The position numbers are program-made. DNA of 63,201 bases, counting the filler, from Mycoplasmatota bacterium (GTDB lineage: Bacteria > Bacillota_I > Bacilli_A > RF39 > UBA660), in NCBI GenBank assembly GCA_012727915.1. It is 5 parts of 5 records of this genome, joined end to end, with 100 filler letters (N's around TTAATTAATTAA, not from the genome) between each part and the next. Parts side by side here need not be neighbours in the genome. Positions count along the whole stretch, not along the records: positions 1 to 26,547 come from JAAYGD010000004.1; positions 26,648 to 44,044 come from JAAYGD010000039.1; 3 more parts are not named here. One strand, written 5' to 3'. Below are positions 6,001 through 27,000 of this stretch, in pieces (the stretch's first letter is position 1; the number at the start of each line of letters is the position of its first letter).

Positions 6001-9000
6001 TCATCTGGAATGTTTAGAAACTTAAAAAAAGAAGTAGCATTAAAATATAGTTTCATGTTATATATACCAATAAGTATTGCAACTATGATATTAGGAATGA
6101 GTGATTTCGTTAGTAGTTCTTCATTTAGTGATTTATGGTTATCTTATTTACTTGGTATGATTGCTTCTACAATCGTTACATATTTTACATTTAAGTGGTT
6201 TAGAAATATTTTATTAAAAGATAAGATTAAATATTTTGTAATATATTGCTTTATAGCAGGATTAATTGCTCTATTAGTATTATAAAAAAATTAACAAATT
6301 GTTAATTTTTTTCTTCTTCATTATCTAACTTATTAACTTCTACTCTATTAATAGATTCAAATTTATTTGATATTTTTTCTGTAGTTACATGAACATCCTT
6401 AACATCTCTAGATACCTTATCTATACTCTTAGAAAGATCATCCCATCTTTCTCTATATCTTCCAAATTCAAGACTTAGTGCATTTAATTCTTTTTGAATA
6501 ATCAAAGCATATTTATCTCTCTCAATATTATGTATTACTGTTTGAACAACTGTTAGCATTGACATTAATGTTGTCGGAGATGTTAACCAAATTCTTTTCT
6601 TATAAGCATAATCAACAATATCTTGATGATAAGCATATAGTTCTGCGAACAAAGCTTCCGCTGGTAAAAACATAAAAGCTTGATCAGAAGTAACATTAGT
6701 TATTATATATTTACTAGCAATATCATCAATATGTTTTTTTACGTCTATTTTAAATTTTTTCTCATAATTATCTCTTTCTATTTTACTTATATTTTTATCT
6801 ACCATATTTTGATAATTTTCTAAAGGGAATTTTGAATCGATTGCTATAAGTCCTAAAGGTTCAGGAGCATATATTACTGCATCCGCTAAAGTTCCGTTTT
6901 CAAATTTATGTTGTAATTCATATATTTTTAAATTATTCTCACCAAATATACTTGATAAAATATGCTTTAAAGTTACTTCTCCAAAAGTACCTCTACTTTT
7001 TTTATCAGTCAATATTCCTTGTAAAGATACTATATCAGTAGACAATGAATCAATTTTCTTTTGTGCCTCATCAATTTTTGTCAATCTTTCTACTATTGAA
7101 GTAAAGGTTTTATTTGTTTTTTCAAAATTTAAATCCAATCTTTCAGTTACTTTGTTATTTATAAGATTTAATCTGTCTTCAATTTTTCTATTTAAACCCT
7201 CAAAATCTTGAAATAATGTTCTTGTAAAATCACTTTTAAAATCACCAATTTCCTTAGTTATATTTGTTTCTAATTTTCCTAATCTTTCAGTAATATTTCC
7301 TTCACTAATATTCTTAAACAAAGATATAGTTACTAATATTACTAATAAAACTAATAATCCTATAATTATATATTCCATATTAATTCTCCTTTATTTTATT
7401 TTTTAATATTAAAGAAACTAAATAAGTTAATAATACTATTAAACACATTTGTATTAATTTCCAAATATCTCCACTACTAGTTATTACTGTTTTCCCAACA
7501 TAACTCCAAAAGAATATAATAGAAGGTTTAGAAATTAATACTGCTGGTATAAACTTCTTTGGGCTCATATTAGATAAGCCTGATGAAATGTTAATTGCAA
7601 AAGCAGGAGTAAATGGTAATGCCATTAATACAACTAATGCTGGAAATGAAACCTTTTTAATATAAGTTAATGTATCTCTAACTTTACTATCGTTTTTCAT
7701 ATCTCTATCCCATCTTTGACCGAACCCTTTTTTAAATGAATAAAATGATAATAAACAACCCAAACAAGTCGCAAACCAATTAATTATAAATCCTAAAATA
7801 GGACCAAAAGCAATAGCGTTAAATGATAAGAATACTGCTAAAGGTAATATTGGGAACACTGATTCTAATATAATAATAAATACACCAAATAAAGGGCCCA
7901 ATTCCTTTAAATTATTTATAAAAAAGTCTACTATTTGACCAAATATTTCTTGCATATATCTCCTAATTTGCTATAACATAAGGATTAACTTGTGAACCGG
8001 TTCCTCCTGTTATTATTACATTTTTTCTTAAAGTAACAACTGGTCTTACACCTAAACTCGATGAAGCTGCAACATTATATATTGTTCCTGATACGCTTAA
8101 ACCGTGATTTACCCAAGAATAAGTCCCCGTTGCTATCAATGTTCTAGTACTTTGATCAGTATAAATATAATTTTGATTTCTACATTGATATTGCCCTCTT
8201 GCTGTACAAGTAGATTCTGTAGATGCATTTAAGAACTCTTCTGGATATAACAATCTCATATATTTATCCTTTAAAGGAAATACTGATTTTCCTCCTGTTT
8301 TTCCAATAACATCACAAGAATCTTTAACATACGAACTAGTTAAGTAATCTGCTCTATTTAAACCTATTACTGTCCCATACTTATTTAGACAAATATCAAT
8401 TTTCTCTAACATTTTACTATAAGTCATTATAGTTGTTTTTTCATATCCTGTATCTCCAAACAATCTGTTATACATAAAACTGAATTGTCTATACTCTGCA
8501 GGGGAATATGCGGGAAGAGGAGCATTTTCAAGCAAATCTGAATATCCATAATTAGTTGCTGGTTGACTATAATAAATACTTGCTGGAGTATTGTGTACAT
8601 TATCAAATACAGATGAAAAAGCAGATCTATCTCTTACAATAGTAATTGTTTCATCTTCATTAATACTCACTATTCTATAACATGAATTAGTTGAAGAAGC
8701 ACAATTTATATTGCTTGTATCCCATGGCGCTATTAAATAATTATTAGGTTGAGTTCCACTATTTGTATCAGTTAAGTAACCATCAGAAGTTGCTAAACCT
8801 ACTGAGTTAGTCTTTGTAATTCCACCTCTAAAAATATATTTGTTATCCCATTTATACAAACCATTTCCAGCATATTTATTTATTGATATATCCTTACCAG
8901 CTACAGTAGCCAATAAAGTATTTTTTAAATAAGTTGGACTTGAGGCAGTATTAACTAATTCATAAACTAAAGCATCGTTATTTGCAGTATCAATTTTAGA

Positions 9001-24000: not shown

Positions 24001-27000
24001 CAATCATATGTTTTACATCAGATAATAATGGATCTTCTAATATTCCAGAAGCATATACTCCTTCTAATGACTTAACAAAAGATTGAGTTACTGAAAACTC
24101 CATTATAGTATTTGTTGTATAAACTTGAATTTGTTCAAATAAATATTCACTATATAATCTTTTATATCTCAAGAACGCTAAATAAGGAACAATTACCATA
24201 GCAAGTATTACATATATTGTTGATATTATAATGCTATAAAAATATAGGTAAGATATTACCGCAGCTCCTCCTCCAAACATAATCATTTGAGAAATATACT
24301 CTTTAGTAGAATATTCTAATCCTAATGCTTTAACCTTTTCACTTATCTTTTTATAAGAATAAGGACTAATCCTTTCATATAAATCTTTTGTTTGTTGAAT
24401 TATAAATTTATATGAATTTTCACTAGTACTTTGTCTATAAAACAATATGAAAAGCGCTAATAACATTAATACAACTAGTACCCACATATAACACCTACTT
24501 TCTAAAGAACTTCTTCTATATTAAAAATATTATTTTTTATAGTTACTCCTTGTGCAGACAAATATCCAATTAAATACTTAGTTGGATTAGATAAAAATAC
24601 TTGTCCATTCATTGCTTTTCTATATATTGTATTGTGTTTTGCTATATTATTTTCATCAACATAAAATTCACATACTTCACATACTTCACGAATAAACCTC
24701 TTTGTTTCTTTATCTTGATAACCTCTAATATGTACTCCTAATTGAACATATCTATGTATAGACTTTAAAAATTGCTCAATATCAATATTAGATTCAAGCA
24801 AACTATACATACGAGATGGAATACTTTCAGCTTTATCAGAGTGAATAGTAGATAATATGTTATGTCCAGATGAAATAGAGTTTCTTACTGCCATAACAGC
24901 TTCTGCAGTACGAACCTCTGATAATAAGATCCATCTAGGATTTTGTCTCATACAAGTTACTAATACTTCACTATAAGATGCAATATTATTTGTTTTCATT
25001 GCAACTATATCTCTTTGAGGAAATATCTTATCTAAATGTAATTCCAATGTATCCTCTATTGTTATTAGTTTTTCATCTTCTTTAGTATGAGAAGCTAAAT
25101 ACTTTAAAAACTCAGTTTTACCAGAACCAGTTTCTCCACTAATTAAAATATTACAATGTCCTTCTACACATCTAATTAAAAAATCATGTATCTCTTCTGT
25201 TATATATTTTTCTTCTAATATCTTATCTTTTTTCAACCTTATCTTTGCGGGAGTTTTACGCATTAACATTGCTATACCATTTTTAGCAATAGAATCATGA
25301 ATAAAGTTCAAACGTAATTCAGCACTCTCAGCATCCAAAAACGGATGGGCCATATTAAATGTTTTACCCATCATATTTGAACATTGAAAAGCAAGTTTTT
25401 CTATTATAGCGTTAGTAACATCTTGAACTTCTGCCCTATATACTCCTTTAGATAAAGATTTTAACCACAACTGACCATTGTTTGTGTATGAAACATCAGT
25501 TATATCATCATCATTTAAAAATCTTGCTAAAGGGCCGAAATCAACATTATTGAACATATTGTCCATAAATTCATCCCCTTTTTATTATTTATTATTGCTC
25601 TTCAGGTATTACATCAGGCAATTGATCTTCAGTAATCAAACCAGTATTTATTTCTAAAAATAATTTTAATTCTTGATTCGATATTATTGGAGTTAAATTC
25701 TCTTTATTTCCACTCTTATAAGATTGAGTAGTAGGTACAGGAACTAACTCAGCAGCTATAGTTCTAACATTTTGCAAATACAATGCTTTTCTTAACAATA
25801 AATGAATATCTTCAGGAACCGCAAACAACAATATACTAGGTCTTCTAGTTTGTTCACTATTCTCAAATACATGTTCTCCACTATTATCTTTAACTGCAAG
25901 TATCTTAACATTTTCAACTAATTTTCCATAAATAACTTTTCCATCTGGATCTAAAGCTTTTAAATAAATATCAATAAAATTGTCAGGAAACATTGAATTA
26001 CCATAAGTTAAATCAACATCTACTGGTAAATTAAATGCAGTAAATCCATCTCTAATATTAATAAATGCAGAATCTGGCAATCTACTTTCAGTTATTATAT
26101 TATCCTCATAAAACATACTTCCAAATGGGATATATGCATTATAATTAGACCATTTTCCCACAATTAAATTAGGATTCTTAATTACTTTTCCTTTAACCAT
26201 TGCTGGTGGAACTTGCGCAATTCCTATCATATCTTCAGTTATTTTTGTTCTTGGTTGAATAGAAACCTTAGCATAAGGTATATCTACCGGTTGAATAGCT
26301 TGATTTACTCTATAATTATATCCAAAAAATATAATAAGTACTCCAAGTACTACTCCTAAAATAGTTACTGTATTCTTATTTTGAAAAAACTTCTTTAATT
26401 TAAAACCTAAATTTCCCATCTTTATTCTCCTTCTATACTATTATGTAATAATATTATCATAAATATATAAAACTTTCCATATCTTTTTACACTTATTGAT
26501 AAAAATAAAAGAATCAATTAATATTGATTCTTAATTATTATTTTTTANNNNNNNNNNNNNNNNNNNNNNNNNNNNNNNNNNNNNNNNNNNNTTAATTAAT
26601 TAANNNNNNNNNNNNNNNNNNNNNNNNNNNNNNNNNNNNNNNNNNNNAAATTTTTAAACCAGCAAACTTGTCAGTTCCCATCATATTATTCATCTCCCCC
26701 TTCTTCTATATCACTAAAGTCCATTTCTAAATCTTCTTCAACTACTTTTTCTTCAACTACTTTTTCTTCAACAAGAGGCAGTTCTTCTTTTACATCATCT
26801 TTTATTTCTTCTATAGAAAGCAATACATTTTCTCTTGTTTCTTCATCTTCTAATTGTTTTAAATCTACTTCTTCATCTTTTTCATTAATTAATGATATAT
26901 TTAATCCTAATGCTTGGAATTCCTTAATTAATACTCTAAATGATTCTGGTAATCCAGGTGGTTGAATTGGATTTCCTTTAACTAATGATTCATAAGTCTT

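What a model noticed while it worked through the whole genome (the two positions that open the first line are those of the whole stretch)
7963..26547. A chromosomal Tad-like pilus plus Gram-positive type IV secretion gene cluster that is core to RF39
An 18.6-kb one-strand block (g00164-g00180) joins Tad/Flp-pilus-like genes (CpaB/RcpC-like g00180, CpaF-type ATPase g00179, two conserved membrane proteins g00178/g00177) to a Tcp-like type IV secretion set (VirB6-like g00172, TcpE-like g00171, VirB4-like g00169, 1107-aa M23 wall hydrolase g00168, VirD4 coupling protein g00166) and two pilin-like genes, with no relaxase, replication or integrase gene, and its parts are found at 46-69% identity in nearly every RF39 genome. 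I read it as a domesticated, vertically inherited secretion-pilus machine that this reduced lineage needs for its way of life, most likely to attach to and draw DNA or other macromolecules from (or inject into) neighbouring [...]
Evidence so far: Gene order and families: calls 8, 40 (TcpE E 6e-4, RcpC E 1.7e-3, N_methyl E 6e-4 for g00165). relatives.tsv: T4SS-DNA_transf (VirD4) in 1371 of 1553 UBA660 genomes (88%) versus 23% of bacteria; P-loop_TraG (VirB4) 1288 of 1553 (83%) versus 18%. tblastn against the closed genome G124 (another genus): VirB4 69% over 593 aa, CpaF 68%, g00178 60%, g00177 55%, g00170 53%, g00174 52%, VirD4 50%, g00171 48%, g00180 46%, in one syntenic block that spans the start of that contig (1182948-1191766 and 11664-21308), followed at 21348-21740 by a DUF5411 N-domain gene. 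g00178 alone: full-length homologs in 57 of 61 sampled genomes (56 of 60 genera) at 53-65% identity. DUF5411 is in 1234 of 1553 UBA660 ge [...]
(Added by a program. Inside this text positions count along the whole contig: they may not be those of the stretch shown here. "Call 12" and the like, gene names such as g00115 and contig names such as C1 are that model's own, and its searches are not shown. The text may have been shortened before it was handed on; [...] marks where a part breaks off. The agent that wrote the report below was given it as the finding of a first reader that could run no searches.)

Follow-up and report, generated by a model that had tools for sequence, protein, structure and literature searches.

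The report
Domesticated conjugation machine in gut Bacilli
A widespread, still uncultured group of small-genome gut bacteria keeps a cell-contact secretion machine, borrowed from a mobile DNA element but stripped of its DNA-transfer starter enzyme, as a permanent inherited part of its chromosome, which hints that these bacteria live by attaching to other cells.

Summary
The 17-gene block is real and intact. It joins a Tad-like pilus module to a minimal MPF_FATA-type T4SS (VirB2-like, VirB6, PrgI, TrsD, VirB4, wall hydrolase, VirD4). Domestication is well supported. VirB4 is in 141 of 149 RF39-family genomes and a MobL relaxase in 13, always on another contig. Gene trees track RpoB, the flank is fixed, and VirB4 dN/dS is 0.015. 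Three corrections. (1) The Tad+T4SS pairing already exists on conjugative plasmids such as pBMB68. (2) Tad is accessory: 18 genomes, including whole genera, keep the T4SS without it. (3) The two terminal N-methyl pilins are genus-specific neighbours. VirB4's sister group is Erysipelotrichales-type elements with the same gene order plus a relaxase. Surface parts diversify fast, and the hydrolase slot swaps among about ten catalytic families. The best reading is a contact machine paralleling the Patescibacteria T4SS; substrate and partner are unknown. I found no paper on it in five RF39 searches. This scan reported the locus five times before on other genomes.

The parts
25592..26419 (-). CpaB/RcpC-like Tad protein with SAF domain, 275 aa
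   Evidence: TIGR03177 E 3.8e-10, below cut-off; 29% to the pBMB68 SAF protein; family HMM E 6e-44
24502..25566 (-). CpaF/TadA-type pilus assembly ATPase, 354 aa
   Evidence: PF00437 E 3e-27; four ATPase motifs kept in 20 of 20 orthologs; 23 of 24 family genomes
23591..24487 (-). TadB-like membrane platform protein (PilC/GspF fold), 298 aa
   Evidence: AlphaFold model; best of 48,161 chains are PilC Z 9.3 (rmsd 2.8, 101 aligned), EpsF Z 8.6, SpoIIIAB, TcpE; family HMM hits an annotated T2SS-F plasmid protein at E 1e-14
22809..23591 (-). TadC-like second platform protein, 260 aa
   Evidence: family HMM hits the gene after tadB in five mobile loci, E 1e-18 to 1e-5; structure not predicted
22559..22723 (-). 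Flp-like putative major pilin, 54 aa; near-invariant N-terminus (M-K-x-A-x-G-E-x-x-x-T), hydrophobic helix, hypervariable tail
   Evidence: 46 distinct sequences among 53 loci with TadC; no Pfam or NCBIfam hit; pilin role inferred from size, position and pattern
22103..22513 (-). putative minor pilin, 136 aa, one or two copies per locus
   Evidence: model shows a long N-terminal helix plus beta-meander; many pilins among fold matches but only Z 4-5.2, below non-pilin top rows (inconclusive); homolog follows tadC in plasmids
21115..22092 (-). CpaE/TadZ-like protein (receiver-like plus degenerate ParA/MinD domain), 325 aa
   Evidence: Atlas structure match to receiver+AAA_31 proteins TM 0.47-0.54; HMM hits the pBMB68 AAA gene between cpaB and cpaF at E 4e-4
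20722..21057 (-). VirB2-like two-helix T4SS pilin, 111 aa
   Evidence: PF18895 matched by 21 of 41 aligned family members, best E 3e-6; the window protein itself does not hit
18626..20626 (-). VirB6/TrbL-like channel protein with variable extension, 666 aa
   Evidence: PF19597 E 3e-10; about 7 hydrophobic segments; only 42-44% identical to two congeners
18277..18600 (-). PrgI/VirB3-like protein, 107 aa
   Evidence: TcpE E 6e-4; family HMM hits the annotated PrgI of pBMB68 at E 5e-5
17751..18305 (-). TrsD-like protein (separate N-terminal part of VirB4), 184 aa
   Evidence: matches positions 96-280 of NF045975, E 4e-17; the name TrsD is taken from the description in PMC12102498, not from a TrsD profile
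15970..17754 (-). VirB4 ATPase, 594 aa, Walker A at 238 and DEAH at 470
   Evidence: NF045975 E 4e-102; 141 of 149 family genomes; dN/dS 0.015 against G001
12620..15943 (-). VirB1-slot wall hydrolase, 1107 aa: membrane anchor, M23 domain, possible muramidase and C-terminal cysteine-hydrolase-like part
   Evidence: PF01551 E 7e-24, muramidase E 0.017; C-terminal motif seen by eye only; catalytic domains in this slot differ between genomes
11925..12611 (-). LppM/DUF3153-like lipoprotein, 228 aa, in the slot where sister elements carry the relaxase
   Evidence: Atlas features and structure, TM 0.64; slot comparison
9709..11916 (-). VirD4 coupling protein, CD1115 family, 735 aa
   Evidence: NF045973 300 bits, cut-off 250; within 10 kb downstream of VirB4 in 56 of 58 loci with enough flank
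9294..9629 (-). type IVa/ComGC-like pilin, 111 aa; not a core part of the cluster
   Evidence: N_methyl E 6e-4; other genera usually carry a rhodanese-like gene here, judged by eye; one of 14 such ORFs scattered in the genome
7963..9285 (-). type IVa-like pilin with large domain, 440 aa; not a core part of the cluster
   Evidence: N_methyl E 7e-7; after VirD4 only in congeners G001 and G002
4027..7955 (.). conserved chromosomal flank: VTT/DedA protein, rmuC, bacA, asnS
   Evidence: asnS named from sequence and recall; rmuC within 10 kb downstream of VirB4 in 40 of 58 loci

Best explanation
The locus is the mating-pair machinery of a Gram-positive conjugative element that was fixed in the chromosome of the RF39 ancestor, lost its relaxase, and has been inherited vertically since (shown, about 0.9). 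The T4SS half (VirB2-like pilins, VirB6, PrgI, TrsD, VirB4, hydrolase, VirD4) is the core; the Tad-like pilus is a frequent but dispensable helper. Inferred mechanism: the Tad pilus and the VirB2-like pilins bring the cell into contact with another walled bacterium; the membrane-anchored hydrolase opens peptidoglycan locally; VirB4 and VirD4 power a channel through which proteins or nucleic acid pass. The conserved motors and fast-changing surface parts fit partner-specific attachment by an auxotrophic cell, as in Patescibacteria. The stated confidence is for this contact-with-other-bacteria function.
For: VirB4 141/149 against MobL relaxase 13/149 in the same genomes, all 13 on a different contig from the core VirB4. 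PF03432 in 4/24 family genomes and not in G000. Ten relaxases from related elements give no tblastn hit in G000 or in 184 non-mobile loci. VirB4 and RpoB trees share 12 of 16 splits in 19 genomes; none of nine cluster genes conflicts with RpoB among splits >=0.95. Median identity to other genera 73% against 71% for RpoB. dN/dS against G001: VirB4 0.015, TadC 0.012, TadB 0.026, rpoB 0.029. VirB6, hydrolase, lipoprotein and minor pilin fall to 42-58% identity against G002 and G003. 53 of 60 hydrolase-slot proteins have a Pfam hit, spread over M23 (23), SpoIID (19), CHAP (13), C39_2 (6), NlpC/P60 (4), glucosaminidase (4) and rarer families (60 of 78 sent). The same gene set without relaxase is described for Patescibacteria, where it is essential for epibiotic growth (PMC12102498; PMC12857230). 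RF39 lacks de novo nucleotide synthesis (PMC13155120 passage) and may need scavenged muropeptides (PMC10868615 passage).
Against: No expression, substrate or partner data (uninformative). Tad is absent from 18 genomes that keep VirB4 and is separated from the T4SS in others, so the halves need not act together. The hydrolase gene is missing between VirB4 and VirD4 in G017, G050 and G098. Hydrolase swapping could serve the cell's own wall. All dN/dS values stayed below 1, so fast surface change may be relaxed constraint, not diversifying selection. 8 of 149 family genomes lack VirB4, as does the one genome of the second family (that genome also lacks asnS, so the region may be unassembled). RF39 can be abundant and transcriptionally active in chicken caeca, where it was read as a specialist rather than an epibiont.
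Confidence: 0.5

Rival explanations
1. The machine is a housekeeping system for exchanging or importing chromosomal DNA among kin without a relaxase of its own, akin to mycoplasma chromosomal transfer or archaeal Ced/Ted import, for repair, recombination or nucleotide supply.
For: VirD4 is intact with its motifs. The best VirB4 family is the mycoplasma ICE model, and such ICEs move chromosomal DNA (PMC12857230). rmuC is a stable neighbour, 40 of 58 loci. The ancestral function is DNA transfer.
Against: RF39 already has ComEC and a prepilin peptidase in 5 of 5 genomes tested. Cluster genes show no conflict with RpoB between genera, though this does not test exchange within species. Surface hypervariability fits foreign targets at least as well.
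Confidence: 0.25
2. It is still a conjugation system, working in trans: it mobilises small elements, or uses a relaxase too divergent to be recognised.
For: Relaxase-bearing elements do occur in RF39 genomes. My searches cover known MOB families only, five of them in just 5 genomes, and the PF13814 control was silent.
Against: Near-universal retention under RpoB-level constraint is hard to explain by service to elements found in about a tenth of genomes. The elements examined carry their own distant VirB4 (28-33%) and VirD4.
Confidence: 0.1
3. It serves adhesion to, or protein delivery into, animal gut cells or mucus.
For: Most titled loci come from gut or rumen assemblies; large adhesin-like fusions occur on the DUF5411 gene.
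Against: The cluster usually carries a peptidoglycan hydrolase. The only RNA-labelled run holding this sequence is from wastewater (weak). No effector was identified.
Confidence: 0.08
4. It is a trapped, decaying ICE or plasmid remnant without function, or an active mobile island.
For: Clear mobile-element ancestry; cluster GC 28.3% against 25.2% for the genome.
Against: Open frames without internal stops in all listed core VirB4 matches, strong purifying selection, tree congruence, fixed flanks, no tRNA on C19 or C2, ortholog confined to RF39 and one sister genome among 400 class genomes.
Confidence: 0.02

Closest known systems
Patescibacteria (CPR) chromosomal T4SS (PMC12102498; PMC12857230)
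   Same: Chromosomal, lineage-wide, MPF_FATA-derived; VirB4, TrsD, PrgI, VirB6, VirB2-like pilins and T4CP; relaxase absent; VirB8 not recognisable; small auxotrophic genomes that also carry ComEC and type IV pili.
   Different: Different phylum. RF39 keeps VirD4 and usually a hydrolase inside the cluster and often adds a Tad module (the paper has 0 occurrences of 'Tad' and 'RF39'). Independent origin is inferred from the sister group; no identified CPR VirB4 was in that tree. Essentiality and epibiosis are shown only for CPR.
Bacillus thuringiensis conjugative plasmid pBMB68 type (NZ_CP010581) and Priestia plasmid NZ_CP061869
   Same: pBMB68 has VirD4, TrbL, PrgI, TrsD-like, 632-aa VirB4 and NlpC/P60 on the same strand as DUF5411, SAF/CpaB, AAA, CpaF, TadB and TadC; the Priestia plasmid shows the same Tad module.
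   Different: Plasmid-borne with a relaxase; different order of the halves; only 26-32% identity over full-length matches; its VirB4 is not the sister of the RF39 clade.
pLS20-family conjugation operon (PMC8557374) and Enterococcus pZB18
   Same: A Bacillus plasmid with pLS20-like gene sizes (NZ_CP128115) carries DUF5411-like, CpaF, TadB-, TadC-, minor-pilin- and Flp-like genes in a row (E 5e-6 to 6e-3 among 54 ORFs); pLS20 genes 36-41 are listed with matching sizes as VirB11 plus unknowns.
   Different: Mobile; no CpaB or CpaE homolog detected; pLS20 itself was not fetched; the paper states that the family encodes no pilus components VirB2/VirB5.
ICE-like elements of Erysipelotrichales-type Bacilli and mycoplasma ICEs (NF045975)
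   Same: Sister clade of RF39 VirB4 (FastTree support 1.0; named members Thomasclavelia and Solobacterium). Same order: VirB2-like, VirB6, PrgI, (TrsD)VirB4, [hydrolase], VirD4.
   Different: They carry a MobL/MobP3-type relaxase just before VirD4 (3 of 3), are sporadic (3 of 399 class genomes besides G030) and show no Tad genes in the stretches read.

Membership tests
MPF_FATA-type T4SS | VirB4 ATPase with intact Walker motifs | tested here: met
MPF_FATA-type T4SS | VirD4-type coupling protein, PrgI/VirB3, VirB6 and wall hydrolase next to virB4 | tested here: met
MPF_FATA-type T4SS | VirB8-like subunit | tested here: inconclusive
   no Pfam or NCBIfam VirB8/TcpC hit among cluster genes; no structural screen of all genes
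MPF_FATA-type T4SS | class assignment by CONJScan profiles | not testable with these tools
   profiles not available; class inferred from gene set and relatives
Conjugative element (ICE or plasmid) | relaxase in or near the transfer region | tested here: not met
   known families only, PF13814 control silent
Conjugative element (ICE or plasmid) | patchy distribution and tree conflict with the host | tested here: not met
   141 of 149 genomes; no strong conflict with RpoB
Conjugative element (ICE or plasmid) | integrase, att repeats or replication gene at the edges | tested here: inconclusive
   none among the flanking ORFs scanned and no tRNA; not all C2 ORFs were scanned and no repeat search was run
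Tad (type IVc) pilus | CpaF/TadA ATPase plus two GspF-fold platform proteins | tested here: met
   fold shown for TadB only, TadC by profile and position
Tad (type IVc) pilus | CpaB/RcpC and CpaE/TadZ | tested here: met
   both below curated cut-offs
Tad (type IVc) pilus | Flp pilin with the canonical G|xxxxEY motif (motif recalled) | tested here: not met
   conserved G6-E7 and T11, with no Glu-Tyr pair after the glycine; no Flp family hit
Tad (type IVc) pilus | prepilin peptidase in the locus | tested here: not met
   one A24 peptidase per genome in 5 of 5, on other contigs than the cluster's VirB4
Patescibacteria-clade T4SS | VirB4 inside the Patescibacteria clade | tested here: inconclusive
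   RF39 VirB4 groups with Erysipelotrichales-type elements, but most tree members are unnamed and no known CPR sequence was included
Patescibacteria-clade T4SS | needed for epibiotic growth | not testable with these tools
   RF39 is uncultured

The most novel reading that the evidence does not exclude
RF39 bacteria are contact-dependent epibionts or parasites of other gut bacteria: a second lineage, inside the Bacilli, that independently turned a conjugation machine into an essential attachment and feeding organ, with swapped hydrolases and pilins setting the host range. The machine may have been built in two steps, a T4SS from a Tad-less ICE first and a plasmid Tad module later.
Probability: 0.35. 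Interest if true: 0.87.

Novelty: new variant of a known kind. Interest (0 to 1): 0.62.

Why it matters
RF39 is a common, genome-reduced, uncultured order of animal guts whose way of life is an open question (PMC13155120, PMC12306168). A T4SS kept as firmly as RNA polymerase, without a relaxase, is what marks the epibiotic Patescibacteria. If it has the same role here, it explains why RF39 resists culture, points to co-culture with a bacterial host, and gives a second, independent case of T4SS domestication. It also suggests that unexplained genes in Gram-positive conjugation operons (pLS20 genes 36-41) form a Tad-like pilus, which can be tested today in Bacillus subtilis.

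Tried and rejected
Expression: one RNA-labelled run held 23% of the words, but only as short contigs from a library labelled FAIRE-seq, so nothing can be said on transcription. G037 (another order) carries the whole cluster, but it has two asnS genes, the cluster-linked one unlike its congener's, and its two order-mates lack VirB4; I treat contig C76 as probable contamination and do not count it. G025 (second family) lacks VirB4, CpaF and asnS; absence not claimed. P0002 and P0003, the nearest VirB4 relatives (44%, 39%), proved to be rare Walker-degenerate proteins with no closer match than RF39 among 400 class genomes. Fold search of the 136-aa protein was inconclusive. 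Foldseek of TadB gave no E <= 0.001; the best-probability rows were OutF and EpsF. The PDB sequence search with the TadB profile found nothing useful. The promoter and terminator scan was at chance level. VirB6 was too divergent for a tree. P0007 had no plasmid match at E 1e-60. G293 and G479 were not scored in the class searches. No complex prediction was run, since the halves proved separable. A Shiga-B family score of E 0.01 on the DUF5411 fusion is far below cut-off and rejected as noise. Literature: searches (RF39 terms; T4SS, pLS20 and Tad terms) listed no paper on an RF39 T4SS or on Tad modules in Gram-positive conjugative plasmids; only the top 12-20 rows of large result lists were seen, subscription papers are not held, and no supplements were read. 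Counts in notebook entry 2 for the hydrolase slot were off by one for three families; the report uses a recount.

Full report
1. Observation. The window is a concatenation of contigs; positions 1-26547 are contig C19 of an 873-kb assembly. From 26419 to 7963 lie 17 intact minus-strand ORFs with gaps of -29 to 95 nt. I could name most of the unassigned genes. The 298-aa protein folds like PilC/EpsF (Z 9.3, rmsd 2.8 over 101 residues, top of 48,161 chains). The 260-aa protein is its TadC-like partner. The 54-aa ORF at 22559-22723 is a Flp-like pilin with a near-invariant start and a hypervariable tail, 46 distinct sequences in 53 loci with TadC. The 136-aa protein is a probable minor pilin (inconclusive). 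The 325-aa protein is CpaE/TadZ-like, the 111-aa protein is VirB2-like (21 of 41 family members hit PF18895), and the 228-aa protein is an LppM-like lipoprotein. PrgI, the 184-aa protein and VirB4 together match consecutive parts of the mycoplasma ICE VirB4 model. The C19-C2 join is backed by a congener's single contig (87% over 4.2 kb), which places a DUF5411 gene (E 2e-37) two genes upstream of cpaB. Titles of related loci include 'Bacillales bacterium UBA660' and 'CAG:884', consistent with RF39.

2. Distribution. In one sample of 149 family genomes at >=90% completeness, VirB4 was found in 141 (64-99% identity), the TadB-like gene in 126 and a MobL-type relaxase in 13. Crossing the lists: both halves 123, T4SS only 18, Tad only 3, neither 5. 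The Tad-less cases include whole genera (g40 2 of 2, g59 2 of 2, g88 3 of 3, g105 3 of 3). Five of them tested have no CpaF ortholog (best 29%), and their loci run from unrelated genes straight into the VirB2-like genes (G116 keeps the CpaE-like gene). They fall in four places on the VirB4 tree. In other genomes both halves exist but apart, for example G014 and G019 or about 40 kb apart in G113 and G074. Among 80 titled loci, the 54 with at least 9 kb upstream all had VirB6, PrgI and TrsD, and 47 had the CpaE-like gene; of the 58 with at least 9 kb downstream, 56 had VirD4 and 40 had rmuC. Among 400 class genomes the ortholog was seen in 49 of 50 family genomes, in G000, in G030 (sole genome of a sister order; T4SS half beside its only asnS, no CpaF) and in G037 (probable contaminant contig), and in none of the other 347. 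The two N-methyl pilins follow VirD4 as a pair only in the own genus and belong to 14 such ORFs scattered over the genome. ComEC and one prepilin peptidase were present in 5 of 5 genomes.

3. Vertical inheritance and selection. For 19 genomes the VirB4 tree shares 12 of 16 splits with RpoB. For nine cluster genes (14-19 genomes each) no split with support >=0.95 conflicts with RpoB, though deep nodes are poorly resolved; VirB6 was left out as unalignable, and G030 and G037 were excluded from the counts. VirB4 is as conserved as RpoB (73% against 71% median to other genera). Against G001, dN/dS is 0.015 for VirB4, 0.012-0.034 for the Tad core and 0.029 for rpoB. Against G002 and G003, VirB6, the hydrolase, the lipoprotein and the minor pilin are only 42-58% identical, with dN/dS 0.29-0.51 where it could be computed, all below 1. 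ATPase motifs are intact. In the slot after virB4, 53 of 60 proteins sent (of 78 found) hit Pfam, across M23 (23), SpoIID (19), CHAP (13), C39_2 (6), NlpC/P60 (4), glucosaminidase (4), two lysozyme families, VanY, YkuD and an amidase.

4. No relaxase. PF03432 was found in 4 of 24 family genomes and not in G000. MobA_MobL, Mob_Pre, Rep_trans, Replic_Relax, MobL and TrwC were found in 0 of 5 genomes, with the Replic_Relax control silent. All 13 MobL-positive genomes have it on a different contig from the core VirB4; the three read (G066, G113, G121) carry it in separate elements with their own 31-33% VirB4. Ten relaxases from related elements found nothing in G000 or in 184 non-mobile loci. An unknown relaxase is not excluded.

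5. Origin. The Tad+T4SS pairing exists on mobile DNA. Plasmid pBMB68 carries relaxase, VirD4, TrbL, PrgI, TrsD-like, VirB4 and NlpC/P60, then DUF5411, CpaB, AAA, CpaF, TadB and TadC. Related modules are on a Priestia plasmid, pZB18, a Mycoplasmatota plasmid, a Bacillus plasmid with pLS20-like gene sizes, and an element inside RF39 genome G017. In a 134-sequence VirB4 tree (midpoint-rooted, FastTree) RF39 forms one clade (1.0), sister (1.0) to elements whose named members are from Thomasclavelia and Solobacterium; pBMB68 lies farther off. Three genomic elements found with a member of that sister group repeat the RF39 T4SS order, hold a MobL/MobP3-type relaxase just before VirD4, and show no Tad genes in the stretches read. 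G030 and several Tad-less genomes group together (0.989), so a two-step assembly (ICE T4SS first, plasmid Tad later) is possible; repeated loss of Tad fits as well.

6. Mechanism. Shown: an intact, strongly conserved, inherited, relaxase-free T4SS with an accessory Tad-like module and rapidly changing surface parts. Inferred from family knowledge: pilus-mediated contact, local wall opening, and an ATP-driven channel. Inferred from analogy: the partner is another bacterium. The gene set matches the Patescibacteria T4SS, which is essential for epibiotic growth, and RF39 is described as lacking nucleotide synthesis. I give this 0.5, kin DNA exchange 0.25, hidden or in-trans conjugation 0.1, animal-cell targeting 0.08 and a relic 0.02; about 0.05 is left for other uses.

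7. Papers seen. PMC12102498: abstract, introduction and passages. PMC12857230: passages. PMC8557374: passages. PMC13155120 and PMC10868615: passages. PMC12306168: first half. Wang et al. 2023 only as cited in these. No supplements were read. The searches listed under Tried and rejected showed no description of this locus in RF39.

8. Verdict. A real and well-supported case of T4SS domestication in a second genome-reduced lineage; a new variant of a known kind. The parts and their pairing are known from mobile elements, and the concept from Patescibacteria. Five earlier notes of this scan describe the same locus in other genomes; my reading was recorded before I saw them. Not mentioned in the lines of those notes shown to me: the dispensability of Tad, the relaxase-bearing sister group and the hydrolase swapping. 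Interest 0.62.

Noticed in passing
P0002, P0003: Rare full-length VirB4 relatives (44% and 39%) inside the RF39 clade with degenerate Walker motifs; possibly inactive paralogs. Known only from short contigs.
   Followed up: partly
L001:4295-7816 (contig C2, upstream of the cluster): DUF5411 N-domain fused to about 1000 further residues with a cysteine-rich tail; in relatives the fusion ranges from 133 to 577 aa, like a variable tip adhesin.
   Followed up: partly
genome G000, 11 contigs: Fourteen ORFs with type IVa-like pilin N-termini, 72-1234 aa, are scattered through an 873-kb genome; ComEC and a prepilin peptidase are also present.
   Followed up: partly
L156-L157 (G017:C3): A separate mobile-type element in an RF39 genome with its own Tad-like module, VirB4 (28%), VirD4 and weak relaxase hit: the mobile form of the same architecture beside the domesticated one.
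   Followed up: partly
L207:4783-10642 (G000:C41): A second small locus with a VirB2-like gene, a 1464-aa Ig-repeat surface protein and an LppM-like lipoprotein paralog, away from the main cluster.
   Followed up: no
L020-L021 (G037:C76): Contig with an RF39-type cluster and a second asnS in a genome of another order; probably misbinned.
   Followed up: yes
L022 (G030:C10): Sole genome of a sister order has the T4SS half in the same rmuC-bacA-asnS context, so the domestication may predate RF39.
   Followed up: partly
window:26686-63201: The rest of the window is four other contigs (C22 with rpoB and ribosomal protein genes, C25, C28, C32) joined by N spacers; not adjacent to the cluster.
   Followed up: no
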